Shown: positions 13,800-54,659, counted from the first letter of the stretch. The stretch is 64,000 nucleotides of DNA from Catajapyx aquilonaris (GCA_000934665.2 KZ538542.1:1-64000); one strand, 5' to 3'. The notes: generated by a model from the letters alone, not told the origin. Made by a program: numbers and translations.

Positions 13800-14384
13800 C
13801 AGGGTGTTCCAAGTATCCGGGTCACTTTTGGATAACTGTTATCGCCCGACAACTGTAATTTTTTGTAGCTTGTTGTGCCCCGATTCAGTTGCCCCATTCC
13901 AGCCCCCGGACACTGATACTACGCTCTGGCGTTATCACCTGCCGAGGAATTTTGCAGCGGGTGCTCACCTGAGAGCGCCATGAGACATTTCGGAGGCCAG
14001 GATAAGTGGCGACCCTACCGGACTAGGCTGAATTTTATAGGTACGAAAGGGGAGGACTACATGCTGGCCCAACATGGCCGCCGGAGGCCATGTTGGGCCC
14101 CCCAATGTAGCCCTCCCCTTTCGTACCTATAAAGTTCAGCCTAGTCCGGTAGGGTCGCCACTTATCCTGGCCTCCGAAATGTCTCATGGCGCTCTCAGGT
14201 GAGCAACTTCTGCAAAACACGTCGGCAGGGGGTGGGTGGGAGTGACCAGACCTTACTTATATGACCGTGCCCCATTCTATAACTTCTGCTACATTCGACC
14301 CACTGGGGGGTCGAATATAGCAGGTGTTATAGAATGGGGCGATAATAGTTATCCAAAAGTGACCAGGATACTTGGAACACCCTG
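13800..14384. mobile_element. Tc1/mariner-type MITE (TA-CAGGGTG termini)
   Basis: ~48-bp TIR cagggtgttccaagtatcc.ggtcacttttggataact.ttatcgccc with TA TSD. A related end occurs at 63936. Confidence 0.85.
13900..14269 (+). mobile_element. Palindrome-core element, full copy ('flip' centre)
   Basis: 8-bp TSD ccccattc (13892-13899, 14270-14277), CA...TG ends, and an internal hairpin at 13938-14229 with a 69-bp perfectly paired stretch. Confidence 0.85.
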
Positions 14385-15243
14385 TATACCTTACCTTATT
14401 GGCTTTCAAAGTGGCCTATTGCGTAACATTCATCTATGTGGGTGCTCCGAAAAGTAAATTAAATATGCACGTGGTGCACAGTGCCGCACTAGCCCCGCGA
14501 TATGGGGTAAGTGCGATAGTGGAATTCTCTCACAGTAATAAACATTGTTCGGGTTGCATATGACTAGTGCCAAAAAGAGACAAACATCCTCTGTCAGTCT
14601 CTATATTCCGAATTTAAAAAGTCAAAGAAGTTCTTACAGGGCAAACTTTTACTCACTGCTCCGTAGCAGGTTGGCTAACAGTACTGACATTTATCTGAGT
14701 AAAATGCATTATGTCGAAGTGTTTTCACACCAATGTTCGAAAATTATTAGCCTGTCGCCAGTCGCGGAATATCCATTGGTGACCACATAAAGATGACTTG
14801 TCGCGTCTTTTGGCGACGCTAGCTTTATTCCTCCAATATTGCATTTATACGTATTAATTGTAATTGGGTACGGACTTGCCCCTGATCATGCCTAGTCAGG
14901 GGCAAGTGCGGCCCCCTTTTTAAAAATCATCCTAATTATTCCACCAAAACGGAACAATAACATCGTGATATTTCTACTTAACCTCTTACATACAGTGCCG
15001 GAACGGTTATGCAGCAGATGATTCAAGACTCCGTCAGAAATTCTGCAAAATATACTTACATACTCGCCGGAAAAGATAAAACGCCCCCTTGAGCTTGGCG
15101 GCCATTTTTGTCTACTATGTTACTAAAGGAAGATTATCGTGCTACTTTTAGCAGTGTTGGCAAAGGTCGTCGTGAACGTTTACGGGATTTTCGATAGCTA
15201 TACTGCCACCTTGTGCTATAATACTGTATATTAGAAGCAATTC

Positions 15244-15533
15244 ACCGAAGCAGTAGTGGTGTAGTGGTATGGTGTCCGACTGCTAATCGGGAGGTCCTGG
15301 GTTCGAATCCCGGAGGCCGGCGACCCTGATCATGGTTTTCTGTGGTTTCCCATGGTCATCGCAGGATAATTCCGGGGTCGTTACCGTAATTATAGGCCAC
15401 ATCCGCTTCCTTCCTTACCTATCCTTGCCTCAATTCCGATGAAAAAGTATAGTAAAGATGGAAAGAGTTCCAGACAAAAAAATTGGGAGAAATCCCCCCC
15501 TAATAAAGCCTAAAGGGCTGATAATGGGGTATC

Positions 15534-15584
<51 letters not shown>
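15244..15584 (+). mobile_element. tRNA-derived SINE (family A) with (ATT)n tail
   Basis: Head and core as at 2415, 3' stem-loop at 15494-15531, TSD tattagaagcaattc (15229-15243, 15585-15599). Confidence 0.9.
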
Positions 15585-15589
<5 letters not shown>

Positions 15590-16214
15590 GAAGCAATTCC
15601 GCACTTGCCCCATTGTCGCACCTACCACAACTTACCCTACATTACGTATATTGTATGATACAGAAATACTTGCAGATTAATCTTTCTAGGTTATGAAAAA
15701 GTCAAGCTGTCAGGCTGTTTTAGCCAAGATACTGTATGCTTCAGTAGGATTCTAGCTTCTGTCTGGAATGTCTTATAGTCACAGCATCGCCACCTGTAAG
15801 CAGAGTTGTCTTACCAGACAACGTGATAATATGTAAGGCGCCGATTAGAATGCAGAAAGTGACACTATTGATCGGGCGATAATGAGGATTCAAATAAACA
15901 TTGCCATACCTACAGCCCTTATTCATGGCTGACGTCATCTCGATGCAATTAAAATGGCGCCTAGTTTTTGCGAGCCAAAAAATCATTTTCTACCTTGTCT
16001 CACATCGAACTTTCTTTCTGAGTAGAAATTTTGCATAGGGCAGAGCTGATTTTTGCGGGAGTTTTCAAAATGTCGTATTCAACCATTAAAATGTATCACT
16101 GATACATTTTAATGTTCCAGAATGTAATCAAGATCTCTGCTAAGATTGGCTGAATTTCCTTTTAGTTCATACAACAAGAATGTGGCAGAATCGTTTATAA
16201 TATAGATCTATGTC

Positions 16215-16363
16215 CAAGGGGGTAACCACTCGACTGAAAAGTGTACACTGGAGTACCAAAATTCAAGGAGTACCAAGGAGTACCAAAGAGTAAAGTACCT
16301 AAGGAGTACCTGGGAGTACCACTAGCAGGTGTACACCGGAGTACCGAAGTGATTACCCCCTTG
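16215..16363. mobile_element. 149-bp MITE with 8-bp TSD (hAT- or P-like)
   Basis: TIR caagggggtaa.cact, internal gagtacc repeats, TSD tctatgtc (16207-16214, 16364-16371). Second copy at 37763. Confidence 0.9.
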
Positions 16364-16483
16364 TCTATGTCGCAGGTAGAGTGAGTCCTAAGTCAAAGGA
16401 AAGATTATGTTAAAATGTATCATTTGCTTAACACAGTGCTGAGTTAAGTAAGCAAATGACGGAATCTTTATACCTTTTAATGT

Positions 16484-16993
16484 CAGTAAAACTTCCCTAA
16501 CTCGAATTTCTATAACTCGAAGTTCTCCATAACTCGAAGTGCAGGCAGGGCCTTACGATGGGATATCAATGCATTTTCAGTCTCCCGAAGTCCAAGTTCA
16601 TGTTGGCGAGTACGGAAAATTTTCCCATTTCCCAGCCGAAGGGTCGAGAGTAGGCCACATGTACAGAAAGGCTCAATTTCCTGATCTCCGTCTACCAGAC
16701 GTACCGAAAGAAGTGTTTGACTCGATTGTGACAATTGAATCTTTGAATCTAAGAGTAGGCAAATGTCCATAACGGAATTTATTTATACAACAAAACTACG
16801 AGGAACATTGTACGTGTGATAGTGACAGTATTTTCCAGTTTTGAACACCTTTCGTCGCTGGATATAAAGGTAGGCTTCCTTATAGAGTGATGTGTTTTAA
16901 AAAATCCAAACCTCTCTAATTCGAATCTTCTATAACTCGAAGTTTTTTCCCGGTCCCATGGGATTCGCCTTATATAGTCTACCCGTTTTACTG
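16484..16993. mobile_element. Degenerate Tigger/pogo-like MITE
   Basis: cagtaaaac...gttttactg termini with repeated tataactcgaa subterminal motifs. Confidence 0.55.
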
Positions 16994-19900
16994 TACCTCT
17001 TGAAGACTGCTCAGTACAATGGAATCCTCCCATACTGTAAGCACATCGGAAATAAGCAAGCTTGCGCTTGGTGTTGCTGGACCCTTCATCAGTATTTCCA
17101 GCAACGCCAAGCGCAAGTATTACATTATTTTACTTATTTCTCATGGCCTCGCCCCCCCCCCCCCCATGAAATCCTCTCATGCCCCCCAGGTTGGGAACCA
17201 CTGCTCTAGATAATGATATTGGTGAAGTAGACTTTCTAAAATGCACCCAAGGTATTCCATCTCTGATACTGTAATATTCTAAGTTTAAAAAAATAGCAAA
17301 ATCGCAACATTCCAGTTTAGATTTGTCAGTTTCACTTTCTCGTATAATATTATAAGGAACCATGACACTAACTGTAAGACCGATCCTACAACAGATCTTT
17401 TATGTAAGTAGCTTTTCAAAATGATTCCAGATGTTGGGAAGAAATTATTGAATAGGAACGATGTTGAAAAGAGAGATGAATGTAACTATTGAAAACGAAT
17501 GTACTAATTATGTTCATAACGGAGTAGAGTCATCGTTTAGTACTCGACAGTTCTAGAAACAGGTCAATGATTGTGTAAATATGTCTTGTACTCCCGCCAG
17601 CGAAAATAAGCTAATTGGATAACGTTGTAACCTACCATAACACCTCTGAAAACGATGGCTCAGCAGCCTTCATACTGTAGAAGCAGTTATCAGGTATCCT
17701 CCCTAAACAGAGCCTTGACTTTGGAAGTGATCCCACTAGTATTACCTAGAACCTAATAACAAGTTGTAGTCGGCTACTAATGACATGTAGGCTACGTGCC
17801 TAAGAAAGGATCCCGAAACGAGGGGGCAATATTGATGGCGTATGAAAAAAGAATGGGGGAGGAAAGAGGTGCTAATTAATTAATTATTATCAGTGAGGGT
17901 TATTGAGGTTCAGACCCATGTCAATTAGGACGGCAGTGAGGATAATAACTTGGCATATCATATTATTCCCTCTGAAGGGGGATATGGAAATAGAATTTTC
18001 GCTGCGATCCATTCTTCGCCATTCGCTAAGCTTTAGTGCTTGTAACCCTCTTTATGGTGCTCTAAAATAAGATCGACCCAAAGCGAGGTAATTCTCAGTA
18101 TCAACACTCGTGATTTCCCAGAAGAGTGAAATGGCACAGCTGTTCTTACTAGCAGGGTAGGCCTATGCATTTCTCACGAAGGGTTAGGTGACATTGTAAC
18201 TTGATTGTGGTCAAGTTACGTGGCCATTGTTACTGGTGTTGGCGTGCAAAAATCCTTCCTCATTTCTGATATTAGCTCATTCACTAAGGGCTCGTTGTAG
18301 GAAGGCATTTTGCATATCGTGGGAAAACAAGAGAAATTCACAAAAAAAACAGTTGCGAGATAATATAAGGATATGACCTTACACGTGCTATGATGACACA
18401 ATCAGATGAAATCAGAGATTATCTCCTTAATTTGCGTTCATGCAACAGGCCCTAAGGTCCTATTTTTATTATGGTCATACTTTGATCTTACATCTTTGAT
18501 AGCACGAATAATCTATTCGCACCAAGTTTCTGTCAGTGTAGCCCTCCAAAGAGATAACTCTACTGTTCCTCGATGAATTTTTGAATTACGAGTAATTACC
18601 TTGCATAATTGAGAAAAACCTGCATCAGGAATATTCTCCTAAAAATCACCGATAATTTTAACAATCCTGAAACCATTTATTGCGTGTATAAGTTCGTTGA
18701 ACCAGTGCCCTGTAATCATGAGCCTTCCTAATAGTTTAATTTGTAAAGAAAACTGGATGATGTCGCAACGCTGCAGGAGGCACAGAGGGTGACACTGGCG
18801 GTTTTTACCCCCTGAGCAGAAAACACTTTAGGACCATGAAATAGCTTTTTGCAGTTATGTTTTTAATGATAACAAGTTAGTTGTACTCGCTAAAGGCTAC
18901 TACGAGCACCGAAGCCACACCGAAACTTTACAAAGTTATTTATTGCCTCATAAAGTTCGTTGTTAGATGGGAAACTGACGACACCGTTTATTACATCTAG
19001 CCCTAAAAATACGGTTAAGTTCCTCCCCTACCTACGGCATAATCACGTCTCTATTCCGATGTGCCACAGGGAGATTAGAAATTTTACAGACGATGGGGGG
19101 ATGGGGAAGAGAGGGATAGATTAGGAGGTGGGGAGAGGATGCAGAATGAGCTCAATCTTTTTGCACCATGAATCACAATAAAGGAGTGGAAGGTGCTGTC
19201 AAATACCAAACAAATGATTCTGAGAAAAGTCTGGCAAAAAATCTGGCGAGCCGGAATATCTATTTGAAGCTCAGTAGACGCTCTAAAATTACCCTTTGAT
19301 TGCACACTTAAAGGAAGGAGTATTTTCTTTTAAAAAATGGAATTAGCCTGCCACCATAAAAAATTAAACCCCTTCGTGATGTCTGCAAAGTTGCGCACGA
19401 TCCTCCCAGAATGTGATGAAAAATGACTCTCCGCCACCCGCCTACCTCCCCCCGGACCTTCCAAACCCATCCACACTTACCATGGCAGAAATGAATTTAA
19501 AATTATCTGCAAAGAAATGGGACTATAAAAGGATAATTGTTCCTGAATTTAAAGGGCCACTAAATAAAATATGAAAGTTCAATATTTCAACTTTTCATTT
19601 TTGCAGTTTAAAAAGACACGAGCATTGAAGTCGCTCGAAGCTGGCTGCGAGGTTTTGTGTTGAATAGAATAGGAGGTAGGAATTTTTCACAATTTATTTG
19701 CAGGCTCGACTCAGGTGAAATGGTGATGACGTCATCGGCGAGAGACCTTCAGCAAAGTTCTTGTTGCCGTAGCGTTACCTGCATGGTTATTATTATTATT
19801 TCCCTTGAACCGTCGTGAGAACTCGAGTCCATTTAAATCATGGCCTATAAAAGGTGTATTGCAACTTGGCCAAAACATGGCTAAAATGTAACACCAAACA

Positions 19901-21683
19901 GTAACGACCTGTGATGAGATTTTGGGTAGCTCTGAGAGAGGAGCGGCCACCCACCGTAGCTTTTTAATGGAGAGTTCGGCAAGCATCCACTACACTAATC
20001 AGCACTACATCCAATAGAAAGACTCAAATGGTACAATGTTGCGGGCTTGCTATATGGTTCTATTGATTCCCCTTGCAGTACTTCCCTAAATACAGTATTC
20101 CACTGGGTAATCGGGCAATTCTTTTATAATCGCTCTGCATTTGGGCTGAGATTGCAAACGCTCTTTAATAGACTACAGACTGCCGGCCATCACATAATCT
20201 TTCCACAGCGCATCCATTTTCCCGCCAACCCTGAGCTCCATTTCAATGATTCGACACAAACAACTTGGCAAAATCCGGATAACTTTGTTTCTCTCTTTAC
20301 ACTTAACAGAAAAGGGAATCATCGACCGAAGTATCCGCAAGTCTCGACACAATTTTCTGCTCTAGGAAACCACGAAGGAAGAATTCCAAATTGAACTCCT
20401 TTTATCCCGGCTGCAGTTAGGCTCTTACTAGGTTATTTGCTGTGTTTTTAAATCCCCACAACTGGGGGCTTGTTGAAACTTTTGACTCCCTGCACACTCT
20501 ATATGTTATATGTTCAAATGAATTCATGCGTAGGAGATGATAATACTATGATGGTAAAGGGGTGAGGAAAGGGGTGGGGGTCCAGAACAAAAAGTGTTAA
20601 GGCCGTGAAATGAAGTACCACGGTCATAAAGCTGTGGTGGAGGTGATAAGCAACACGCAAAACCCCGGGACCCCGCTGAAAAATTTGCCAAGAAAACAGC
20701 TATGCCATCGTGTGGAGTAGGAGAACAATTTTTAAACCCTCGCATATATAAGCCAGGTTTATGTAGTTGGGTGGAGGTGGGTAAATGGTGTTTGGGAGGG
20801 TTTGGGGGGCATGCGAAGCGGGGGCAGAGGCATGTGGTGACCAAGCCATGCGTGCTGGGGGCTCCTTTTTCCGTGATGTCGACTGCGTTTCTTCACGTGC
20901 CTCGCATTCATTCTTTATCGCAATTTCTCATGATGCAGTCAACAAACCCGGCAACGGCGCCCCTCTGATCGATATTTCACCACAGGCCATTTAATTCCAT
21001 TACGTAAGTTGCAAAGGAAACATTGGGATTGTTTTCTGCTCCTTCTTTGGATTTTGCGTCTTCTTTTTTCTTTCCTCAGATTTTAGGAGGAACATAATCT
21101 GCGCCAATTCATCTTCAATCATTTTTGACCGGAATTCTAAGATCAGTAAGTGGACAAATTAGGACGTCGTATTTCATGCTGTATAACTGGCTTGTGGCCA
21201 TGTTTTGCAACACTCTCTACTTGTTTCGACAGTTGCGTTCTCTTTTTGACATACGCGTGGATATTTGGAAAATATGGTAATAGCGTCACACCACAAGTGT
21301 AGGACACCATTATTGGAGTCTAAAGGTCTTTTGACATTTTGTAAAAATGATGGCCGAGGAGCTGCAGCCGTGCGATGTTCTAATAGAGATTTTGGTAAGC
21401 GGTGGCACTTCTCAGTTCTTAGCTATAATATTGTGGACAAATTACCGCTTACCAAAATTGCCCTTTAAAGGCTTTTTTTGCCTAAACTTCGCCTCAGTAG
21501 TAGTTTTTGCGGAAAATGTCCTTTCGCTTATAATGGGAGACCTCTGTGGTGTCTCACTTTTATTTTATTTTCCACATGTCCTGAACGGCAAGTCTCAATT
21601 TTCAGGGGAAAAATAACAATAAAATACATTTTTTTGGTGAATGAATGTCACAAAATTATTAAGATAAGAAATAGGCAATACTT

Positions 21684-21722
21684 CCCCCTAAGAGGGCTCC
21701 GCCCTATAATGGGGTAAGTAAA

Positions 21723-21748
<26 letters not shown>
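21684..21748 (+). mobile_element. Minimal retroposed fragment: 3' stem-loop plus (AAAT)n tail
   Basis: ccccctaagagggctccgccctataatggggtaag plus tail, between the perfect 15-bp TSD aaataggcaatactt (21669-21683, 21749-21763). Confidence 0.85.
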
Positions 21749-21753
<5 letters not shown>

Positions 21754-24090: not shown

Positions 24091-24240
24091 AGGCCATTTC
24101 ACAAAAAAAATGTCGCGCGGCGAACGGCGCGACTTGCGGCAAATTTTTATTTATATTTATTGTTGCCAATTGTTGGCAACAATAAAATTTGCCGCAAGTC
24201 GCGCCGTTTGCCGCGCGACATTTTTTTTGCGAAATGGCCT
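24091..24240. mobile_element. PIF/Harbinger (Tourist-like) foldback MITE
   Basis: Near-perfect 150-bp hairpin aggccatttc...gaaatggcct with TTA TSD (24088-24090, 24241-24243). Confidence 0.85.
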
Positions 24241-26140: not shown

Positions 26141-26340
26141 TAGCATGGTTTGTGCCTGAACCAAACTCAACCCAATATAAGCAGGTAAGACTTTTTGACA
26201 ACCTTAAATGTAAATACTTAATCAATTCGATTCATTAATAAATCATTAACTCATACGAATTATTAAATTGGAGCTCATTACGTTCATTATTTATGGTGTT
26301 CAAGACTATGAGGCTATGGCGCCCCTTTTTATTCCGTATA

Positions 26341-26888
26341 CAGGGTATTTATTGTAACCCTGCAAAGACTTACAGGGGTAATAGAGGGGACCAAGACAAG
26401 TATATTTTACATAGGAACCCTTGTCCGGAAACGCCATCTAGAGGGGGTTCATAGACGAGGAACGGGTGCGCTCAGACGCGTCACGCGAGAGGCGCTAGGC
26501 GAGCGGACTGTTTTGTTCATAGATGGCGCGCAGTTGTTGCCAGGTTAAGGCGTATCGCGTCGTTGTAAGCAAACAACAACGCGATACGCCATAACCTGGC
26601 AACAACAGAACCGCTGTTGACTATCCGCGCGTCTCCTAGGAGGCGGACTTTAGTTGCTAGATGGCTCTGCTGTTGCCACGTTATGGCACATCGAATCGTC
26701 GGTTACTATCGGAGCGCCATCTATCAACAAAACAGTCCGCTCGCCTAGAGCCTCTCGCGTGACCTGAGCGCACCCGTTCCTCGTCTATGAGATGGCGTTT
26801 CCGGACACGGTTTCCTATGTCAAAAATACTTGTCTTGGTCCCCTCTATTACCCCTGAAAGTCTTTGCAGAGTTACAATAAACACCCTG
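26341..26888. mobile_element. Tc1/mariner-type foldback MITE with branched internal palindromes
   Basis: TA-cagggt...accctg-TA. The arms pair over ~180 bp, with an additional inner hairpin at 26533-26606. Confidence 0.85.
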
Positions 26889-29800
26889 TATTGGGATGAC
26901 TAGAGGAATTTACAAATGTTTCACGAGCTAATAATTATGACCTAATGATGCGAGCATATATCTGAAAGTCTTGTCTTATAGCTATATGTAAATTTTATGT
27001 TACAAAAATGACACTTAATAATCCATATCTGGCTATGGCAGCTCGCAAACTACACGCTGTACTCGGTAATGAAGATGGATTCGCTCGTCGGAATCAGATA
27101 GGTCGAAGCACATCTCAGTAAACTAACCAACATTGCAATAATAAGTGTTTAAATATATGCTCTTTGCCTACCCAGTTGATAATGTCCCCACATCAGAGAA
27201 CTCTTCCTCAGTGCAATAAATTCAAGCCTCTAAGCGGGTGTACGCAGGAAACGTGTTTCAACCAGTTCATAAATGGTTTGGTCGCATGATATTATAACCA
27301 TACATCAACATTGACGCAAACACACAGTGTACATCCTGCCAATAATTTCGTGCGCCTCCTATGCGAATGTGAGGGAATATCCTGCTAGGTAGACTACTAT
27401 GAGGACCTAGGCAGTCGTGGCAGTATAACGTTGGTCTCCAGTTGCATATATGTAGGTGGGTTGTTCCGCATGGCTTTGAGCAGAGCCCACCAGGACATAC
27501 CTCCATTCCCGCCATTTCAAGCCAGCTCAGCCACTGTTTTTTTGTCGCGGTTCCAAAAGTGAACGTTTCAGTTTCCATGGCTCTGAGCTGGCCGCAAAAT
27601 TTCCACGCGATCATCAAAGTTGAGATGCGGTGGGGATGGGGGTGGAAAATATACGCGCAAAATGGTTTCGTTTCTGTCAGTTAATCTCCCCTTTCCGTTG
27701 CAATTTAAACACCGCGTTAAGGTCCTAACCATTTTCGCCTACAAAAGGCAGCCATTGTGAAATATCCTCTGCTCTGAAAGACCATCAACAGCCCCATTCA
27801 GAATGATCAACTCATTGCGCTATATGCCTATATTACACAGCAAATTTTTATCATTATTGCATCTTTGCTGAGGAACTCCACTTAGCACGGCCATTAGCCA
27901 GGTACATGCAGTCTTTCCAATAGGCCATGATCATGTATCTAGCTAATTCAAAAAGTGGTAGAAAATTTAGGGCCGGTCTCGTTGCACACTCTTTTCGGAT
28001 CATTGTCCTGGGAATAAATGAACTACTATGTCATTTGACTGCAGCATATAGAATCTCTATTCTAAGCTAAAGCCACTTTTGAAATGAAACGATCTGTAGT
28101 CCACTTCTACAGATTGATCGTGCTTCAAGATTAAATCAAGGCAGAATATGCGGTCTCAGAACACAGGAGTCAATATTGATAGTCTGTTCTTTTTCTGGAT
28201 ATAAAACAGTCCGACCTCTTTTCCCCTAGAGGTGCCATAAATTATTGAGTCGGACTGGCTTACTTTTGCTACTTGCCCCTATAACAACTATTGAACTGCA
28301 AGCCCCTCCCTTTCAAAAAAGATCGCCGTGCTGGAGGTTCTGGCAAACATTGTTACCTCATCCATAAGCATCTGGAAGCAAACATAGGTCTGTTACAGGA
28401 TGAACAGCTATTCATTTTCCACGACAGCCACATCACAAACCCTTCAGTGTGTCGAGAAGCCTCTGAAACATCCTTATATCAGATATGTTTTTCGGCATAA
28501 AACTTGCTCTTGAATAATGTACACACAAATAATATTAATATTATACTGTAGACATGATTGTATACAATGTGTTCAGTAAATCCCGCATATTGGGAAGATA
28601 CGTCTCCGCATCATTACCTCGTTACAGGCTTGCAAAAGTATGCTGCACCCTACACGTTTTTGTTGACATCACCACGTTAATGATATAGGGTGTATCCTGG
28701 CGGTCAGGCTTCCCAAATCACAGTGGTAGCCTGGTGGAATGTTTGTGTGACGGTTTCCACTGTTGTAAATATAATACATACATGTAGGTTTGTTCGGCAA
28801 CATAAAAGATCACATTTTCCGGGAATACTGCACACTCTAATTAAATGGTGTGTATGCAAAATGTTATACGTAAATAAACTGATAACATATTAGCGCAAAT
28901 TGAACTAAAACGTACACAACCGGGCTTACTAAAATGCGCGAATCCTAGCAAACAAAACACAATGCAACTCTGACGTATAGCTTTCAACCTGCCACACAAT
29001 AGAGCGAGACAATTCATGTACTATCACCGTTTGACCTAGGTGAACAAAAAAAACTATAGGTATGCAATACGGTGCGTAATATGATCATAATATAATGTGA
29101 TGAACGGTACTGGAATTGCAGCAAACAAAAGGGCAAAAGGAAATCTGATGCAATTATGGGGGGTTACCCCCGCAGACTATAATTAGAGTCCTATTTTATA
29201 ACGCTGTAAATAATTCCTGCCGAATGCTTATCAGAGGCTGGCCATAGAATGTTTCTCGGCCACATGGAGCAGCAGAGACCAGGACCCAAAAACTACTAAT
29301 AGTTGATTTCAGTTCTCGTATTGTTGGCTGACGCAAGTATGGGGAATTGCAATTTTTTCTCAGTCTCGCAGCTACTTCGTGTTAATACAGCATTAGTGTA
29401 ATTACTGGATCGTAACTTCCTAGACGCAGGTGTCCTAAGATAATTATGGGATAAGGCTGTAATATAAGACAGGCGTAAAATACCAGGGAACCGCGGTTCA
29501 ATAATGTATTTGCGCCATGTTACCTCGAGAAGGACAAGTGTGCTGCCAATACCGGTACAATGCACTGAAATGTAAATGTTCCTCCTCCGGTCTGCAGTTT
29601 TCTAAACCTTTTCCCTGTGACACGCGCTACAAAATGCTAATCCGGTAGAATTATGCAGATTGCACGGTCCATTGCATTTAGTAAAAGCAGTTTGCTCATG
29701 CAGCCACTTTGAATCTGGTACAAAGGGAGGTAGGATGAGAGTTTGAAAAAAAAACCTCGCCCTGACCGAGTAGGCAGCATTTTTATAAAGTCAAACTACT

Positions 29801-35785: not shown

Positions 35786-35896
35786 CGATATTTTCCTATA
35801 CTTTTTATAATGCTACTTGTACACTGTACAGTATATTGGAGAAACGATTATTACCCTAGTGCAGCTCACTTCTATCCCAGCCCAATACAAAAAACT

Positions 35897-36184
35897 GTGC
35901 CGTTATCTCTTTCCACATTGGCGCTAGTGTATCTTCACATATCCTCCCTATTCTTGCGCCTGGGACCATCTTGGTATAGCACTATCGGCAATAATCGACA
36001 GGGGAATCGTCCCGAGCATATCCTGACCTCGTTATCCTAACCACGGGACGATTCCCCAGCCAATTACTGCCGATATCTCTATACCAAGATGGCCGCCGGA
36101 TCGAGTGAGTAGTAAGGTAATATGTTCCACAGCGTGATTCCATTGCACATGTACTAGCGCCAATGTGGGAAGGGATAACGGCAC
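35897..36184. repeat. Foldback (nested inverted repeat) element
   Basis: Outer arms gtgccgttatc...cacattggcgctagt / actagcgccaatgtgg...gataacggcac. Inner arms ccatcttggtatag...ggggaatcgtcccg / cgggacgattcccc...ctataccaagatgg. Confidence 0.7.
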
Positions 36185-37762
36185 GCAAGATGGCGGCGAG
36201 TGTCCCGACCTATACTTCTAAGACCGTGCCCTAGTGAGAAGACCGGGGAAGACTAACTTCAGACATACTTCTTGGATTCATGCAACGATGGAACTGCCAT
36301 CTACCGGCCACAAACAAAACATTATATTGCTCTCAGTTTGTTATGATAGAATGGTCATCAATCGCATAGTAATTGATTTTCACAAATACAAAATCTGTTT
36401 CTTAAACTTCTTGTGACCAACACTCTAGACCTACTAATTTTCTTCCATAATCTATTTTAGACGTTCACTTTGCTGAACTTCTAGTGTTCAGCAACTGAAG
36501 GTTTATGTTGCAATAAATTCCACACATTTCCATAGAAGTGTATATCCAATCATCTCTTACGTGTAAGTAAAATGTCCACAGAGCAGAAAAATTTAATTAC
36601 TGCGTGACACAATTATACAATGTATGGAGTGTTCCAATGTTTCTAAATTAATGAAACCTATTAGCATTATACAGTATTATTATACAGTACAAATAATTTT
36701 ATTGTTACAGGAATTATTTTCAGCCACACACACTCTTTCAGATTTCCTCGCTAAAATGATTGCATTGTAGCATTAATCGTAAAGCAGATGGAAAAATGTG
36801 ATGGAAGTCACATCATGGTTAAAAAGTGGGGAGCGAGTGGAAATTGGAGAGGGGTGGAGGGGACATTGTGTGAAAGTAAAAATAGGCGTATATGGCATCA
36901 ATCTGTCACTGAAATGGAGACGGATCAGCAGTTAAGCATGTAAGTTATAGTACAGAGTTACAGGATCGAGGCCACATCCGGCGACAAAGAGCCCATTTTC
37001 ACTCTTACCACAGTTATCTCCTTTGTTGGAGGGTTTATCTACTGGAATCTGTAAATGTTTTCAATGATGAATCTCGCTTGATCGTCCTTCCTAATGAAAA
37101 CAAAAATATGGTAATAAGCGAAGTTGAATTTTTGTATGGTCAAAATATTTCTCTTCATATTAAAATATTATTAGAAGTCGAATTTTTCAAAATATTTCGG
37201 AAACTTTAGGACACCCTGTACCTCCGGCCTACTCACTCTATGCTTTGGACAGGGAATGTGTAGGAAGGTTACTCGCAACGGACATTTCCGTCGATTTCTA
37301 AGTCCGAGAAAGTACGAAACCGTAGAAATTTACAAGCACCTGTACTTTGGTTTGTGTTGCTGTCATCGACAGAAGGAGACGGACCTACAGATAGTAGACA
37401 TTTCCATTAGTCATATCTTCAATAGCGACAAGCGCCAGGTGGATGGGAAAACATGACGTCAGAAAACAAGTCGAAAACTCTGAAGCGCAAAATGTCATTG
37501 TAATGAAACTAAAAGGTGGTTCTTATTCTTGGCTAGTATTATTCAAACAGTGTCACTTAAATTGCCAGAATGACAAAGATAAATTACTTACCTCTATACA
37601 GATTATTTTCAAAGGTATCTTTTGCATTTTCCGGGAAAGTCATCCGTCCACAATAGGCTATATTACAGAAGCAATTCACACCATCCTACTGTTGGTATGG
37701 TGATTTTTATCGAATTCCGGTAATTACAGATATAGGATGTATGTACGGAGGTTTCATTTGAC

Positions 37763-43687: not shown

Positions 43688-43691
43688 TCTC

Positions 43692-43729: not shown

Positions 43730-43732
<3 letters not shown>

Positions 43733-45832: not shown

Positions 45833-46013
45833 ACTCTGGCTGCCTGCAGCAAAAAGATTTTAATAATGTCCATCAATTTCGCAAATAACTGTTCTTTGCA
45901 CGACTTGTTCTGTGCACGACTGTTCCCTTTAAAATTTAAAGGAAACAAGTCGTGCAGTTAGTTGACAAATTGATAAACATTATTTAAATATTTTTGCTGC
46001 AAGCAGCCAGAGT
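45833..46013. mobile_element. Foldback MITE (possibly a TTAA/piggyBac-type target)
   Basis: actctggctgc.tgcagcaaaaa / tttttgctgcaagcagccagagt, with inner arms gcacgacttgtt / aacaagtcgtgc. Confidence 0.65.
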
Positions 46014-47388: not shown

Positions 47389-47390
<2 letters not shown>

Positions 47391-47455
<65 letters not shown>

Positions 47456-47462
47456 TAATAAC

Positions 47463-47520
<58 letters not shown>

Positions 47521-47756
47521 GATACCCCGTGATAGGCCCCTTGGGCCTCTTAGGGGATCATCTTTTGAATAACCGACTTTAATAATTTGCCTGTAATGTG
47601 ATGGATTTTGATAGTGGGAGGAAACGGGAGAACCCCGAGAAAACCCACGCGAACACGGAGAGAACCCATCGAAACTCTATCCACATAAGTATCCTCCGTG
47701 CGACCCGGGGATCGAACTCGGGACCTTAGAGGTAGAAGGCTGTGGCGCTGTCGCCC
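47391..47756 (-). mobile_element. tRNA-derived SINE with V-domain-like core and long (ATT)n tail
   Basis: Reverse strand gagttcgatccc...gttctctccgtgttcgcgtgggttttctcggggttctcccgtttcctcccac (V-SINE core pattern). 3' stem-loop at 47522-47556. TSD ttgtaaacatacat (47377-47390, 47757-47770). Confidence 0.85.
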
Positions 47757-48642
47757 TTGTAAACATACATTATTATAATTATGCCTACTTACGTACGGTC
47801 GGTATCTTGTAAGATTTTGTTACCTATAGAACATAGAGGAAAATCTGTGTGACTATCATTCCTCTCAATATATTCTATACGCTCGCACCTTTGATATCTT
47901 GAAATTATGACACTATAACTCTAATCGTGCTTCATTTGCCTTCTTTTGCGTTTATAATGACTGATTCGATTATGTATAGACCTACCGTGAATTAGTGCAA
48001 TGAAAAAGCATAATATTTAAGCTAATAGTTTTTCACAGTTGTAGGTATATATACTGTATACGGTATCATACCTGGAATATATTGGGGGTGTGATTCGATG
48101 CTGTCTGACATGACCTTAAGTGCGGAACCTCAATCCACTCTTACCTTTTACTTTTCGAACTCAATCTCATTTATTGGATTCAAAGAAGCAAAGCAATGGA
48201 CAGGGAGAAATAGAGATTTGGTGCCCTTTCCCGCCTCCCGCCTCCTCCCCTCTCGCCTTTCCTCTTCCTCCTCCTATACTTGACTATTCGCTAACCCTTT
48301 AGTTGAAGTCGGGCCTCCAGCACTTGCAGCAGAGCAAATCGGCTTATTCCTTTCTGCCCGGTACAAAGTTGCCGAGTCCAGAGAGACTGCAGGCTTCAGC
48401 TGGTGCTCTGCTGGCCTTTGGGCCCCTCTCGCCACAAGGCTTCCCACTATCCAGCTTTGCGTGCCTGCCTACCTTACTCGGACTCACTGGCTGCCCACTC
48501 TTACTATAGACCTATTTCACTTTTCTATCCGCCTCTTCTACCACCATCCCAAACGCCAAGAGATAAAAGAGATTGGATAGTTATTTAACGGGTTCAGTCA
48601 TAATTGAGACAAATTGACAAACTACATAAGTTATATGATCAT

Positions 48643-48720
<78 letters not shown>
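48643..48720. repeat. (CTA)n microsatellite
   Basis: Direct reading of the sequence. Confidence 0.95.
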
Positions 48721-50019
48721 AGGATAGTACTGATTTCAGTATCTGTATGGAGCTTTTCCACTAACCTGATCATTTTAAGCATTGGATACACTTAGGAACA
48801 GAAACGTACAGAGATTATATAAAAAATCCCCTTCCTCTCGGTTGAGGTTCTTTGCAATGTTTTCGAGACAGAATAATAATTGCTCTGGTTAACTTTATCG
48901 ATTTCGTATTCATTACGGAAATAGATCTTGATAAGACATACCACATGACTGGTGGTGGGGGAAATGGAATAATCATCAGGATATTCATTGTCACTCATGT
49001 ATGCGCTAGTAAATGAAATCATTCAATTATCTCTGCTGTCGTAGAGTTACTGGCCAAACTCGACTAGATCAATTTTGTCTAACGAAATCGGAAGGGCCGT
49101 AAATCTGAGCTGACGGGCGCACTTTTCTGACCACTTCGTGTATATGTGGATATTGACTTATAGAGTGGGCCTTGTCTCAACTCCGACCTCCTCATTGCCC
49201 CTCTGATGGGCTATTGACTGCTCCAATACTGCCACAGGGAAAAAAAAGAATAATTCGGGTTTTTTCGCAGGCCCCAATTTTGGTCCGCGAACACAATGGA
49301 AAGTACTTTATATTTCCACAGAGACCAAATCAACCTCCAATCAATGTCACTATTTCTTTATTGGAGGGAGAGCCAGGTTTTCCTAAATAAATATCGCATA
49401 AACATATTACGAAGCTGAATCCATACATTCAGAAGCACTACAGTATTATACCTTGCAATGAATACGTAAGTTGCACCGTAGAGTCACCATGTCCTGATTA
49501 TCAAGAGGGGGATTTTTCGCAAGGTTAGTAGTCTACGAATTTTCCCTATTACTAAGTACAAGGTGCTCCAACAATAAACTACTTCTTTTGCTTATGGCAA
49601 CAAATAAAACTACATTATTTTATTCCTAATTAGTTAATTAACAAATCAAAGGTAGAGTCACATAGAGTCATTGTTAACCTGAAACAGATTAGTACATGTT
49701 CAGACTGCTATGGGCGTCAGTAAATAATAAAGTGGTTCTCTATTAGGTTGAACGTTTATAGAGTGTGGTGACGCCATTTTTAGCTCGCTTATTCCTTGCG
49801 AATACCTCAATTATTAGCCTTTGCCCTTATCACCAGGGAATATTTGTAACCATCACTGTGCCATTATTATTATTTCTAAATGTCGGAAACGCACACTTTT
49901 GTCGAGGTCTGGTCATTTGCATTCGGAGTCAAAGTCCCACGAGCGTCTTGGCGAAACCATGCTACATGCAGATCTCTTTTTAGTGCGTCGCAGCAATATG
50001 AAACATTCAGTAGGCGTCA

Positions 50020-50457
50020 AGGCGTGTTTACGCCCTCACGAAGTGAGCCAAGTTCGCGGGAGAAGACGCTTTGCGAACGAGAAGAGGAGGTTGCCCTAGG
50101 TTTTCTTGTATACGAGCTCCAGCATAATTATGCGACTGTATATCTATTCCAAGTAGGTTCTTCCATAAGGAGAGACCGAACTCGTAACCTCTGCTTCTCC
50201 TCCAGCCCCCATCTACCCACTCCCTCTTACTATATTGGTCTGGTCACCCTGCTGAGTATTTTAAATATGACCAATCAGGGTCCGGGTGGAGCCTCCCCCC
50301 TTGCAACTGTCCTCTTCATCTGGCCACGCCACACTCCGGCACTCCATCTGGCATGGTGCGAGTTCGCAATGGCGTAAACGGATGGTACTATTCGTGTGTC
50401 CCGCAGAAAATTTGTTCGCTCGAACTTCGCTGACTTCGTGAGGGCGTACACACGCCT
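50020..50457. mobile_element. PIF/Harbinger-like MITE
   Basis: TIR aggcgtgt.tacgccctcacgaagt.agc.aagttcg with 3-bp TSD tca. Confidence 0.75.
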
Positions 50458-51201
50458 TCACTGTGAAGTAGAGGTTAGAGCCTTCCACACCTGAGGTATT
50501 AGATCTCTTGACCGAACAGAGAAACGGCCCCAGACTGATGACTCAAAATGAGTCATGAGAAATCAAATCGACGACATATAGCACAAACATTGTGGGTCGC
50601 AGCAACATACAGGTCCCCTATAGGACATTTCTGCATACTACTGTACTTGCTTTGTATAATTATTATGCTGGTCGTGGTGACATCATTTCTGTGCGTTATA
50701 TCCCTTGTGTTCAGCGCGCGAAATACCGTCAAACGGGGTTACCTAAGCCGGGTGGGTAACTTAAGCAATTTTGCTGAGTAAATTTCGGACACTGATTTTG
50801 GCAACACTGTTTTGAGTTGAAATGTTATTTTTCATGACATAAGTTCCATATTTAAGTGCAGTTTTGGACTGCATATTTGAATATTGTGTTTCTGTCAAAG
50901 GTAACTTTGTAAAATCTTAATTGTGTTTAGGATAATTGCATCATACATTTATACCCTACGTAACTTTCATCGCCAACATCTTCTGTTTGAATTTAATTCG
51001 CTATAAAGATGATGAAACATAACCTGAAACAGTCCTTTTAAGGTAGTTATACTGCATAGCTTAAATTTCCATTTTGGTGTCAATATACACTTAAAAATTA
51101 ATTGTTGCGTCATGTACGGGGTAACATAGGCCGCACTGCTTGTTCCAAGCCAGGCAAGAAGTGCGGGGATTAGCTTCTGGGGGTCAGGAGAGTATAGTTG
51201 C

Positions 51202-51410
51202 TAGGGCTGTGCGATATTTCGATACATCGACTGTCGATACGATATTTTCCTAATATCGAAGTTGCGATATCCGACGCTTGGCATGTGCGATGTATCGAAG
51301 ATCGCGGTGTCGGTTTGCGATATTTTGCGATGTCGGTTTTCGATGTCGGTTTTTCTATTTTCGATATATCGACTTCGATTCGATATTTTTTCGGATATCG
51401 CACAGCCCTA
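51202..51410. mobile_element. hAT-type MITE with TCGAT subterminal repeats
   Basis: TIR tagggctgtgcgatat / atatcgcacagcccta, with 8-bp TSD atagttgc / gtagttgc (7/8 match). Confidence 0.85.
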
Positions 51411-51655
51411 GTAGTTGCCTAGTTGGGAGCATTGTTGATGATGAAATGTACGTTCACATATCAGAAATATTGTTTGTTCTCTACAGCCGGTGAGCATAAA
51501 GAGAGACCGCCATACTTTCCGTTACAGGAACTGAAATTTTTAACAATAAATTTCTGGAGCAATATGCAAATGTTTATTTTCGCCCTGTGAACGGACTTTG
51601 TTACCGTGTCATCGTCAAACATAAGCGAAACACTGAATTCTTCCTGCTGGCTTAA

Positions 51656-51792
51656 CCCTGTAATGCCCACTGGGTCATATCTGGCACACCATTTAGTGCA
51701 ATTTTTGCAATTTTTGCAATTTTTTATATTTCCTGTAAGTGCCAAATTGCACTAAATTGTGTGCCAGATATGACCCAAGGAGCATTACAGGG
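51656..51792. mobile_element. piggyBac-type MITE
   Basis: TTAA-ccctgtaatgc...gcattacaggg-TTTA; the arms pair over ~50 bp. Confidence 0.8.
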
Positions 51793-52451
51793 TTTACCCC
51801 ATATCGGGGGGTAACTTAAGCCACCCCCTCTTCTCTTTTTTTTGTTTTTATCATACATGTTGTAGGAAACTTTCATCCATGTATACGTCGACCGTCACTG
51901 TATACCCATGTTTTACAACAATAAGTTAATCTCTAAAGTCAATGCTCTTGAATTGGCAGATGTCTGAAATTGAAAAGTGGCTTAAGTAACCCCGAGTGAC
52001 TGTACCTACATTGTTGTAAAAATTTAATCCTACCTTCATACAGTATTATCACATCGACACATGACTATAATTATGCAAATGAAATATATATAGGCCTATA
52101 TAATAAATTATGGAATTGCGGGCCACCCTGTAACGGTCCCTCAGCAGTGTCATCCCCATGTCCATAAAAGGCCATGCTGTGTCTGGGAGATTCAATCAGA
52201 CAGGAAAATACGACAACATGTTAATAGTGTGCAAAAGAAACTACTGCCACAGACGAGTCACACAAGTCCACAAGAGGGGTAGTACTTGGTTGGGTAGAAG
52301 GAGCATTATTGCTAACGAGGATTAGTAGAAATTATTTTAATTTTTAATATGATTACGAAACTTGCCGCTGTTTTTTTAACCCAACGACCATTATTGGAAC
52401 TGCATGACAGGTGGAATTTGCTTCCTTCATCATGTAAACCAAAGTCATATC

Positions 52452-52796
52452 GGGGAGGTGTAGATGGCCGAGATGGTAAAGTCTCGGCTTGCTGAGTGAA
52501 AGGCCCCAGGTTCGATCCCCGCCTGGGGAACTTTCCTTTCACCTGCGTCAGGAGGGTCTCTGACCTGCACCAAGGAGGTGTCTGGCAACCTAACCTCCTG
52601 GGGAACAGCACATGACCCCTTTACCGACATTGCACTTGCACCACATGTTCCCTCCTCAAAAATCCCTATCCCTACCCATGTCCTTGTCTCCTTGCACCGG
52701 AGTCAGAAGAAAAATAGTACACAGTTACTAGAAAACTGATGGTGGTGTGCCAACCCCCTAAAAAGGCTCCGCCTTATCACGGGGTAACGTAAAAAA
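52452..52796 (+). mobile_element. tRNA-derived SINE (family B)
   Basis: ggggaggtgtagatggccgagatggt...ggttcgatcccc head, stem-loop at 52754-52786, A-rich tail. Confidence 0.9.
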
Positions 52797-53525
52797 AACC
52801 TAAATCATATTTATTTAAAAAATATATTTCCCTAGCACCCTGGGCTTTATTTTCCAGTTCCTCTGTGTTTATATTGCCTGACCATGTCACCTAAAAAATC
52901 TTTGGTGCATCATATAGGCCCTACAGTGTAGTCTTACATCGAACAGTCTAACGACGTACTGAATTGCAAACCATTCCAAACTACCTTATGAAAAACCTAA
53001 CCGTGAGAGGGATTCCTAGGAGAATCCGACCCAAACGTATATTTCCTGTAATTCATTGCGACAATGTGCAAATATCTTCGCCCTCCTTCCAACAAGAGTG
53101 GTACAACACAATATCCTTTTTTCTTCACCTGGTTTTTTCGCCTTATTTTTTCTCCTCTGCCTCACTGAGAATCGGGGAGGCATCCCAAAAGTACACTTGG
53201 GAGGCTTTGCCACTTTATCATTTGGCAGAGGACCCATGATCGGGCAGCCTTTGCTGGCTTTCCCAAGAGTCTCGCTCATATTGGCACTGCATGTTCACTC
53301 TACAGGCTGTAAGTCGCGGCCCGTGTTCATCGTGCTGCTCCTTCCAAAAAATAATATGTTATAATTCCGGGCCATTTGTAGTTTGCTCATATCAAAGCTC
53401 ATTGTTAGACCCAGTAAAATACAGTGTCTCCTTCGGATACCTTTCTCAGTATACACACGACACTTGATCCGAATATCCTACATTTTGTGACGCGTCTTAT
53501 CGTGCAAAACTTCTAAAATGAAGTA

Positions 53526-53755
53526 GGACAAAGTTGGGGCAAATGCGTATTTACTTCAATATATAGCACAAGGTGGCAGGAGCTATCGAAGATCACGTAA
53601 ACGTTCACGACGACCTTTTCCCACTCTGATAAAAGTAGAACAATCTTCACTCTTTCGTCACATTGGTAAAAATGGCCGCCGAGCTCAAGGGTAGTGTTTT
53701 ACCTTCTCAAGCGAGTATGTAAGTATCTTCTGCAAAACTTATGACGAGTCTTGTA
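53526..53755. mobile_element. End fragment of the 13693-15637 pogo-like family
   Basis: aagttggggcaaatgcg terminus, with inverse homology to 15030-15220. Confidence 0.6.
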
Positions 53756-54287
53756 TCCCACATTGCGCAACCACATCAGCACTGTAAGAGGTTAAGGCAG
53801 TGGTTCTCAATCGGTGGGGCGCGAAGAGGTGGCAGGGGGGCGCGTCGAAAAGGACCTCAGAGTGGCTATCAGCAACATTCTGCCCCGAAACAAAAAATGA
53901 TGTGACTCGAAACAGGCCCAAAAGTTGCACTGATTTAGTAAGTAGGCTCTACAGTATGTACAGTACTTCTGTACATTCCTAAACTACTTTACTGGACTAC
54001 TTACTAGTAGTGAAGTAGTAATAGTGCTGTCGTAGTGCCTAGATTGGTGGGGGATGGAAAGGGGGGGGGGGGATCTTGAACGATCTGTTCAAAGTTATCC
54101 TGACTAAGAGAGGCAACCCGCATGGCACAATGATTCGTGTCTTTAGAGTGGTGTTATCACGGAAACTTGGCAACGTAGGAGAGTTGGATCAAAATTGCCG
54201 CTGTCCAGCCACTCTAATATATTGTCATTCAATGGAAGAATGCCGCTAACAGCTGACCTTCAACGCCTTCCCCAGTAATGTTTGGAC

Positions 54288-54659
54288 CAGCCCACGGACA
54301 CTTATACTTACGTTCTGGCGTTATCAGCTGCCGAGGGATTACGTACCGGGTGGCCACTTGAGATCGCTACGAGACATTTCCCAAGGCTATCATGTGGCGA
54401 CCCTACCGGACTAAGGCTGAACTTTACAGGTACGAAAGGGGGGGCTACATTGGGGGGCCCAACATGGCCACCGGCGGCCATGTTGGGCCAGCATGTAGCC
54501 CTCCCCTTCGTACGTATAAAGTTCAGCCTTAGTCCGGTAGGGTCGCCACATGATAGCCTTGGGAAATGTCTCGTAGCGATCTCAAGTGGCCACCCGGTGC
54601 GTAATCCTTCGGCAGGGGGTGGGTGGGGAGTGACCTAACCTGAGTCTTCTACAGCCGTG
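54288..54659 (+). mobile_element. Palindrome-core element, full copy ('flop' centre)
   Basis: 8-bp TSD gtttggac (54280-54287, 54660-54667), CA...TG ends, and a hairpin at 54328-54615 with an 82-bp perfectly paired stretch. Confidence 0.85.

What the first reader, a model, noticed from the sequence alone, without database searches (positions are those of the whole stretch)
13900..54659. Mobile element with an internal palindrome in flip and flop isomers, 8-bp TSDs and no proper TIRs (13900-14269, 54288-54659, 12073-12255)
Seen: three copies share unique, non-complementary left and right ends in the same orientation. Each has CA...TG termini and its own 8-bp TSD (ccccattc, gtttggac, atttccat). 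The asymmetric hairpin tip of copy 1 (ctacatgct-ggcccaacatggcc-gccgga-ggccatgttgggcc-ccccaatgtag) appears in copy 2 as its reverse complement, with one mismatch (ctacattgggg-ggcccaacatggcc-accggc-ggccatgttgggcc-agcatgtag), while the flanks are not inverted. Known: 8-bp TSDs are made by hAT, P and Zisupton transposases, and flip/flop isomers are a hallmark of parvoviral hairpin resolution but also arise by recombination or template switching between inverted arms. Inference: a non-autonomous family with only a weak, ~5-nt offset TIR remnant, whose palindromic core is repeatedly inverted, possibly via a hairpin or single-stranded intermediate.
Basis: partly seen in the sequence, partly recalled or inferred. 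Interest (0 to 1): 0.8.

Follow-up and report, generated by a model that had tools for sequence, protein, structure and literature searches.

The report
P-type foldback MITE with flipping centre
A small, very abundant jumping element in an animal genome is built as a long DNA hairpin whose centre has been turned back-to-front many times, most likely by ordinary copying or repair slips between its two mirror-image arms, and it seems to be moved by a P-element-type enzyme although its ends are barely alike.

Summary
The three copies, their 8-bp TSDs and the inverted tip are real, and the family has hundreds of copies (right-end pattern 371). Anchored on the left end, 78 copies carry one tip and 98 the other; a tip-free tree of 102 copies needs 25 flips. 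Switch points vary along the arms, inner loops flip too, and sister families with unrelated centres also flip (11:11). This fits template switching or recombination between inverted arms, not parvovirus-like hairpin resolution. The 14-bp target motif resembles the P element (r 0.88) more than hobo (0.59), so a P-superfamily transposase is the likely mover; none with these ends was found. The ends share CA..TG and a 7-nt motif 8 versus 22-24 nt inside, and left-right, right-right and left-left elements all carry TSDs. Assembly scrambling is unlikely to be the whole story but is not excluded without long reads. The scan noted similar flipped cores in other genomes and the 8/24 end layout elsewhere in this one. 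New variant of a known kind (cf. BuT5, Galileo).

The parts
13900..14269 (+). Copy 1, full-length 370-bp foldback MITE (subfamily S1), tip isomer A
13892..13899 (+). Left TSD of copy 1 (repeated at 14270-14277)
13900..13937 (+). Unique left (L) end of copy 1; CA terminus; motif GGACACT at 13908-13914, 8 nt inside
13938..14062 (+). Left inverted arm of copy 1 (about 124 bp)
   Evidence: (I4)
14058..14109 (+). Asymmetric tip, isomer A, with inner 14-bp stem 14066-14079/14086-14099 and 6-nt loop
14105..14229 (-). Right inverted arm of copy 1
   Evidence: I4
14230..14269 (+). Unique right (R) end of copy 1; inverted motif at 14241-14247, 22 nt inside; TG terminus
54288..54659 (+). Copy 2, full-length 372 bp (subfamily S2), tip isomer B; TSD 54280-54287 and 54660-54667; arms 54328-54450 and 54493-54615; end motifs 54296-54302 and 54629-54635 (24 nt inside)
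54446..54497 (-). Tip of copy 2, reverse complement of the tip of copy 1 (1 mismatch in 52)
12073..12255 (+). Copy 3, 183 bp, older subfamily, tip and inner arms lost by a central deletion; TSD 12065-12072 and 12256-12263
35862..36228 (+).
13798..14386 (.). Unrelated TA-flanked MITE into which copy 1 inserted (context, not part of the element)

Best explanation
It is a non-autonomous foldback MITE moved by a cut-and-paste DDE transposase, most likely of the P superfamily. The enzyme needs only CA..TG termini and a short motif set 8 nt inside one end and 22-24 nt inside the other, and makes an 8-bp staggered insertion into a P-like 14-bp target (TSD and target motif shown; enzyme inferred). The interior is a pair of about 124-bp inverted arms around a small asymmetric tip. 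During replication or break repair a nascent strand in one arm can continue on the identical sequence of the other arm; two such switches invert everything between them, and a tract copied across makes the arms alike. So the centre flips passively at about 20-30 times the per-site substitution rate, the arms evolve in concert, and the hairpin is sometimes deleted (flips, concerted evolution and deletions shown; the strand-switch mechanism inferred from the products). The flip is a by-product of the foldback shape, not a step of transposition.
For: Both isomers common: 78 and 98. Tip-free tree: 25 changes in 102 copies, 13 forced by well-supported branches. Variable switch points: an arm marker 7 nt outside the tip changes side with the tip (left-only 16 A:1 B, right-only 1 A:12 B, p 2e-6), outer markers stay on the right arm in both isomers (column 8: 30 of 31 one-sided cases; column 11: 31 of 31; column 20: 8 of 8), and a gap at column 108 goes either way (L051 versus L044). 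Inner loop flipped alone in L041; mixed tips in 4 of 136 copies, two of them (L057, L058) with different TSDs. Concerted arms: 4.7% between the arms of a copy against 13.7% between copies; 5 of 80 private substitutions mirrored, 0.04 expected. Unrelated centres flip too: F6 11:11, F4 3 versus 2 by eye. A branch-length clock fits better than a per-branch chance or 50:50 (lnL -42.9, -46.2, -46.4 on 67 unbiased copies). Four half-copies with the same flank and junction show 2 A and 2 B, so the state changed without the MITE moving. Target: A/T at -3 in 95% and +3 in 93% of 112 sites; matrix r 0.88 with P, 0.59 with hobo; P scores higher at 86 of 112 sites (matrices from File S6 of PMC3276498). 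P-type transposases abound (87 matches). BuT5 shows that P-family MITEs can have 3-bp TIRs. Template switching is known to yield such inversions (PMC10710096).
Against: No autonomous element with these ends was found in 41 loci around P-type hits, so the enzyme rests on the target motif, compared with only two Drosophila matrices. The left terminus CAG and the left-left families look hAT-like (recalled trait). In the unbiased 67 copies parsimony does not separate the tip from a shuffled label (20 versus 21.9 changes, 125 of 500 as low), which random assembly would also give. The clock's advantage is modest (3.3 lnL; 1.4 on all 102). The minority isomer tends, not significantly, to longer perfect arms (median 64 versus 53.5, p 0.11). 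75 of 80 private substitutions are not mirrored, so conversion after insertion is slow. The half-copy case is one event and could be ectopic conversion.
Confidence: 0.55

Rival explanations
1. Flips are tied to transposition: after excision the gap is refilled from the sister chromatid, and the nascent strand re-invades the wrong arm, so each round has a sizeable chance of inverting the centre and homogenising the arms. Same chemistry as the best explanation, but triggered by the transposase.
For: P excision leaves a break repaired by homologous recombination or end joining (PMC7776569). Shared arm variants are mostly mirrored while private ones are mostly not, as if homogenisation happened in lineages that were transposing. 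Short 7-11-nt duplications cluster at the base of the tip. Hybrid forms exist (L093, L130: left end-arm-tip-arm-left end plus part of a right end).
Against: A per-branch flip chance fits worse than a clock. A constant rate near 20 times the substitution rate already explains both flips and mirrored mutations (inference). The half-copies changed state with unchanged flanks, though repair at a donor site would also do that.
Confidence: 0.2
2. Most of the mixing is an assembly artefact: short reads cannot orient a small loop between long near-identical arms, so the assembler picks a side.
For: The assembly breaks at the tip: 15 of the 176 pattern hits lie within 70 nt of a contig start (read) and 6 of 80 fetched stretches end at the tip. 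Unbiased tree not clustered by parsimony. F6, with about 235-bp arms, is exactly 11:11. No Logan contig spans the arms of copy 1.
Against: Subfamilies differ (9:4, 2:12, 10:10, 6:12; p 0.024), with the youngest, most perfect one the most skewed. Both isomers occur in S1, S2 and S4 among copies whose longest perfect arm stretch is 45 nt or less, which ordinary reads can phase. Half-copies without a second arm show both states. Flanks are paired correctly across the hairpin in 128 of 136 copies. An independent contig links copy 1's private arm variants to tip A.
Confidence: 0.12
3. The flips are passive as above, but the mover is a hAT (or KDZ/Zisupton) transposase, not P.
For: 8-bp TSD; T at position 2 in 59% and A at position 7 in 62% of 112 sites; hAT domains abundant (134 matches); Hermes needs asymmetric ends; Kyakuja has CA..TG and no TIRs, Zisupton and Dileera make 8-bp TSDs.
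Against: Target matrix much closer to P than to hobo, above all at the flanking positions (96 of 112 sites); the Tol2 consensus is AT-rich. No clan end in 30 hAT loci. KDZ and CxC2 searches found nothing, though the tool warns that this does not show absence. Right terminus is CAT/CAC, not CAG.
Confidence: 0.1
4. The element travels through a single-stranded hairpin intermediate resolved by an HUH/Rep-like nickase, as parvoviral termini are, and flip/flop is a step of its replication.
For: Overall ratio near 1:1 (78:98, binomial p 0.15); very stable hairpin (about -178 kcal/mol).
Against: Exact 8-bp TSDs with a DDE-type palindromic target motif; the hairpin is internal; switch points vary and are nested; subfamily ratios are not 1:1; unrelated tips flip; symmetric-tip copies have transposed (L057, L058).
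Confidence: 0.03

Closest known systems
BuT5 MITE and the repleta-group P element (PMC3698922; abstract and passages)
   Same: Non-coding, size-homogeneous MITE; vestigial TIRs (3 bp) with an imperfect inverted motif further in; 8-bp (or 9-bp) TSD; tied to a P-type transposase.
   Different: BuT5 is about 1 kb, its sub-TIRs lie almost symmetrically (ending 32 and 30 bp in), it has a known autonomous partner and the passages read report no foldback interior or isomers. Here the motif is offset by 14-16 nt between ends, the interior is a hairpin and no partner was found.
Galileo, P superfamily, foldback-like (PMC3573991 and PMC3688188; passages)
   Same: P-family element with long inverted repeats that are remodelled by recombination and copying from one repeat to the other; chimeric copies.
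   Different: Galileo's long repeats are terminal (0.3-1.2 kb) and its TSD is 7 bp; here the arms start about 38 bp inside unlike ends and the TSD is 8 bp.
Drosophila melanogaster P element (PMC7776569 passages and section 6; PMC2577343 passages; PMC3276498 passages and File S6)
   Same: [quoted passage not shown]
   Different: P has perfect 31-bp TIRs; this family has only CA..TG in common, and elements with two ends of the same type carry TSDs.
Template-switch mutations at inverted repeats (PMC10710096; passages)
   Same: One-step inversion of a spacer and perfection of a quasi-palindrome; no dedicated enzyme.
   Different: Described for short hairpins in primate genomes; here 124-bp arms in hundreds of dispersed copies give a rate estimate.
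Parvoviral flip/flop termini (recalled, no paper read)
   Same: Two reverse-complement isomers of an asymmetric hairpin.
   Different: Terminal hairpin, fixed nick, Rep protein, no TSD; none of these seen here.

Membership tests
P superfamily (non-autonomous) | 8-bp (or 7-bp) TSD | tested here: met
   114 of 136 perfect 8-bp, 128 of 136 at least 7/8
P superfamily (non-autonomous) | P-like 14-bp palindromic target motif | tested here: met
   r 0.88 with P versus 0.59 with hobo; 86 of 112 sites favour P; only two matrices compared
P superfamily (non-autonomous) | TIRs (about 30 bp in canonical P, 3 bp plus sub-TIR in BuT5) | tested here: inconclusive
   Canonical TIR absent (about 5 of 20 matches at offset 0); CA..TG plus an inset 7-nt inverted motif is BuT5-like but offset by 14-16 nt
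P superfamily (non-autonomous) | Ends shared with an element encoding a THAP/RNase H/GBD transposase | tested here: inconclusive
   None in 41 loci around P-type hits; more than half of the 87 hits were not examined and the assembly is fragmented
P superfamily (non-autonomous) | THAP-binding site near each end | tested here: inconclusive
   7-of-8 match to a D. melanogaster site (table) at the left end of 78 of 136 copies; short motif, no chance control, position differs from P
P superfamily (non-autonomous) | 17-nt staggered cleavage and GTP dependence | not testable with these tools
   needs the enzyme
hAT | 8-bp TSD | tested here: met
hAT | Short matching TIRs at both ends | tested here: not met
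   Left CAGCC versus right CACGG/CATGG/CATGA; only the left-left sister families have such TIRs
hAT | hobo-like target motif | tested here: not met
   fits worse than P, flanking positions below background
hAT | Ends shared with a hAT transposase gene | tested here: inconclusive
   none in 30 of 134 hit loci, 1.5 kb each side
KDZ (Zisupton, Dileera, Kyakuja) | 8-bp or 7-bp TSD, CA..TG termini with or without TIRs | tested here: met
KDZ (Zisupton, Dileera, Kyakuja) | KDZ transposase in the genome | tested here: inconclusive
   PF18758 and PF18803 gave no match, with no positive control
Parvovirus-like or HUH rolling-hairpin element | Terminal hairpin with a fixed resolution site | tested here: not met
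   internal hairpin, variable and nested switch points
Parvovirus-like or HUH rolling-hairpin element | No staggered-cut TSD | tested here: not met
   8-bp TSDs throughout
Parvovirus-like or HUH rolling-hairpin element | Rep/HUH gene between the same ends | not tested
   no HUH family search was run; no long copy of this family with coding sequence of its own was seen
MITE | Short, non-coding, size-homogeneous, high copy | tested here: met
   median 372 bp; 371 exact right ends without S1; no Rfam match in 3 loci

The most novel reading that the evidence does not exclude
The genome holds an undescribed P-type transposase lineage that has given up terminal inverted repeats altogether: it reads a 7-nt motif and cuts either 8 or 22-24 nt outside it, pairs the two end types in any combination (left-right, right-right, left-left), and has spawned at least six foldback MITE families whose arms are homogenised and whose centres are flipped as part of the transposition and gap-repair cycle. 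That would be a natural test case of the P/RAG-like asymmetric-end rule without obligate asymmetry, and a built-in recorder of template switching in an animal germline.
Probability: 0.2. Interest if true: 0.7.

Novelty: new variant of a known kind. Interest (0 to 1): 0.42.

Why it matters
The flips themselves are expected of long inverted repeats, but hundreds of datable copies give a rare rate for spacer inversion and arm conversion in an animal germline (about 20-30 times the per-site substitution rate). The end layout matters more to transposon specialists: it extends the BuT5 case of P-family elements with almost no TIR to ends with unequal motif spacing that are also used in like pairs, and shows that TIR-based MITE finders and terminus-based classification would miss or misfile such families. 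The copies are also frequent assembly break points.

Tried and rejected
Single ancestral inversion: rejected. Separate palindromic insertion with its own TSD: none seen; arms and ends co-vary by subfamily. 5-nt offset TIR: not conserved. Autonomous partner: KDZ and CxC2 searches empty and uninformative; 30 hAT loci and 41 P-type loci without these ends; 40 stretches beside unpaired ends gave only short copies, truncations and nested repeats (part of the output was cut and only partly reprinted); six longer left-left elements appeared, from their ORFs and inner inverted repeats, to hold other inserted repeats, not a transposase of their own (no family scan of these). HUH/Rep genes were not searched. 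Reads: only contigs of four 2014 runs of one sample exist; they confirm both junctions of copy 1 but none spans the arms, so they are no independent phasing. Rfam: nothing. Look-up of earlier findings by sequence: nothing. The original Zisupton paper is not held; Repbase and Dfam could not be consulted, so the family may be deposited there. Literature searches for isomeric MITE centres or TIR-less 8-bp-TSD elements returned no such description in the open library. Rows dropped: 34 of 170 loci not parsed; the tree used 102 copies with a clear tip, TSD at least 7/8 and 350-396 bp, one duplicate flank removed; the 60 loci are biased to the query's tip, hence the unbiased subset of 67. A by-eye count of 4 A to 23 B for S2 (p 0.0003) is not relied on; the scripted 2:12 is.
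Full report
Observation. The window is the first 64 kb of a contig of a 286-Mb eukaryotic draft assembly in 20,583 contigs; earlier notes of the scan call it an arthropod, which I did not test. The three copies, their TSDs, the CA..TG termini and the inverted 52-nt tip (1 mismatch) are as reported. Copy 3 is a central deletion and has no tip. Each full copy reads: about 38 bp unique left end, about 124 bp arm, asymmetric tip with a 14-bp inner stem, inverted arm, about 40 bp unique right end.

Family. DNA searches with the three copies gave 1414, 1285 and 1009 first-look candidates, of which 40 each were scored (not copy numbers). An exact right-end pattern that excludes copy 1's subfamily finds 371 places. 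Of 170 loci fetched, 136 were parsed as complete; 114 have a perfect 8-bp TSD and 128 at least 7 of 8. Median length is 372 bp. Short copies such as copy 3 are separate deletions of different size.

Are the flips repeated? Patterns tying the left end to either tip find 78 A and 98 B, controls 0. On a tree of 102 copies built without the tip the state needs 25 changes, 13 forced by well-supported branches, against 34 for shuffled labels; that set is biased by the queries. In an unbiased subset of 67 (all pattern hits up to contig 5257 that were complete) it needs 20 changes against 21.9 shuffled, so parsimony shows no clustering, yet subfamilies differ (9:4, 2:12, 10:10, 6:12; p 0.024) and a two-state clock fits better (lnL -42.9, rate 31 per substitution per site; 20 on the full set) than a fixed chance per branch (-46.2) or 50:50 (-46.4). 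Orientation is therefore inherited but lost quickly.

Where does the switch happen? Arm variants that differ between the two arms act as markers. A marker 7 nt outside the tip changes side with the tip (16 A:1 B left-only, 1 A:12 B right-only). An 8-nt insertion near the tip lies on the right in four B copies and on the left in their A relative (L153, L163, L161, L136 versus L102). Markers in the outer 23 nt stay on the right arm in both isomers. A gap at column 108 travelled with the tip in L051 but not in L044. The inner 6-nt loop is flipped alone in L041, and 4 of 136 copies have mixed tips, two of which have different TSDs and so have transposed in that form. The switch point is thus variable and nested, which argues for homology-driven strand switching and against a fixed nick. 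The arms evolve in concert (4.7% within a copy, 13.7% between copies; 5 of 80 private substitutions mirrored, 0.04 expected), although private substitutions arise at the same rate in arms and ends (0.005-0.007), so conversion is occasional. Four half-copies inside a mariner-like sequence share flank and deletion junction but show 2 A and 2 B: the state changed while the MITE stayed put (one event; ectopic conversion is possible).

Artefact? The assembly is short-read and often breaks at the tip (15 of 176 pattern hits within 70 nt of a contig start, read; 6 of 80 fetched stretches). Only contigs of four runs of one sample are public; they confirm both junctions of copy 1 and link its private arm variants to tip A, but none spans the arms. 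Against a pure artefact: the subfamily skew, both isomers in S1, S2 and S4 among copies whose longest perfect arm stretch is 45 nt or less, no significant excess of long perfect arms in the minority isomer (p 0.11, trend in the artefact's direction), the half-copies, and correctly paired TSDs. Some individual orientations may still be wrong.

The ends. The tips of the two ends are not complementary (about 5 of 20 matches). What is inverted is a motif GG(A/T)CACT, 8 nt inside the left end (fixed by my search pattern, so not independent) and 22, 23 or 24 nt inside the right end (37, 5 and 84 of 128). The layout recurs in families with other interiors: F2 (other tip), F4 (a copy at 35862-36228 of this window), and families with two ends of one type. 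Right-right elements carry TSDs (4 of the 9 loci at 7/8 or better, 1 at 6/8, 1 without, 2 partial, 1 an ordinary left-right copy; one more at 8/8; two without TSD), and so do left-left elements. All are foldbacks. F6 (580 bp, about 235-bp arms) has its centre 11 times one way and 11 the other; F4 shows both too (3 and 2, by eye). Flipping thus follows the shape, not the tip sequence.

The mover. 112 distinct targets give a 14-bp palindrome: A/T at -3 (95%) and +3 (93%), core G56 T59 C45 T38 A38 G54 A62 C55. The P element's motif is ATRGTCCGGACWAT with most information at the outer positions (PMC2577343, passages). Against the published matrices (PMC3276498, File S6) the correlation is 0.88 with P and 0.59 with hobo, and 86 of 112 sites score higher under P. 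P ends differ in the spacing of their inner binding site (9 and 21 bp; PMC7776569, passages and section 6), and BuT5 with its P partner has only 3-bp TIRs with imperfect sub-TIRs (PMC3698922, abstract and passages). P-type transposases are plentiful here (87 matches), but none of 41 loci examined carries these ends; nor do 30 hAT loci; KDZ searches were empty without a positive control. The P assignment is therefore an inference from the target motif.

Mechanism. Shown: DDE-type insertion signature, repeated inversion with variable boundaries, concerted arms, central deletions. Inferred: strand switching between the arms during replication or break repair (template switching is known to give such inversions; PMC10710096, passages; copying between inverted repeats is proposed for Galileo, PMC3573991, passages). 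Whether excision-gap repair drives part of it is open (rival 1). A parvovirus-like route is unlikely; parvoviral features are recalled, not read.

Novelty. Spacer inversion between inverted repeats is known, and the scan has filed several such cases in other genomes under template switching. P-family MITEs with vestigial TIRs and P-family foldbacks are known. Not found in the searches run (open library only, Repbase and Dfam not seen): a clan with unequal motif spacing whose two end types pair in all three combinations, and a copy-level rate of centre inversion. Other papers consulted: PMC12730594, PMC9297572, PMC4455052, PMC2753552, PMC3688188, 10.1101/2022.09.16.508221 and 10.1101/2024.03.22.586318 (passages only), PMC2872659 (abstract only). 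Figures with terminal sequences (BuT5 Fig. 2, Kyakuja Fig. 1) and preprint supplements were not visible and may bear on the end comparison. Verdict: new variant of a known kind, interest 0.42.

Noticed in passing
window 35862-36228: Fourth clan member (family F4) with TSD CCCTAGTG, same end layout, unrelated foldback interior; 215 first-look candidates genome-wide.
   Followed up: partly
window 13798-14386 and L019: Copy 1 sits in a TA-flanked MITE; L019, from another branch, is inserted at the same site of a related MITE copy with a TSD differing by one base: independent insertions at a hotspot.
   Followed up: partly
L014, L147, L238: Three copies of different subfamilies at the same site (TSD GTTGCTAA) of another repeat; L014 is A and L147 is B.
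   Followed up: partly
window 11989-12354: Copy 3 lies inside another TA-flanked MITE with CAGTAAAACC-type inverted ends (read).
   Followed up: no
L108, L115, L139, L291: Half-copies inside a mariner-like transposase remnant, same flank and deletion junction, two with tip A and two with tip B.
   Followed up: partly
L093, L130, L246, L259, L222: Clan members insert into each other's right ends and tips; L093 and L130 are hybrids with two left ends plus part of a right end.
   Followed up: no
L080 1509-2221: A left-left family copy and a copy of this family stand in tandem with three copies of the same 8-bp TSD.
   Followed up: no
L248: A right-type end appears shortened by about 16 nt between two GGTCT repeats, which brings the motif to 8 nt from the tip, as in a left end; TSD 7/8 (by eye). 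The right end may be two left-like units in tandem.
   Followed up: no
arm columns 110-117 in many copies: Recurrent 7-11-nt duplications at the base of the tip, a local slippage or repair hotspot.
   Followed up: no
L209 2154-5952: A P-type element with an 879-aa frame, long TIRs beginning CAAAG and an 8-bp TSD, itself inside another TIR element; its ends do not match this family.
   Followed up: partly
window 4634-5199, 26333-26896, 61986-62176: Other inverted-repeat elements (arms of 110, 107 and 73 nt).
   Followed up: no
window 2439-2596, 15268-15427, 3340-3509, 10445-10602, 52448-52679: Dispersed repeats with tRNA-like heads, probably SINEs.
   Followed up: no
clan families F1, F2, F4, F5: Full-length copies with different interiors cluster at about 320-375 bp and tip-less copies seem not to have amplified, hinting at a preferred distance between the ends.
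   Followed up: no
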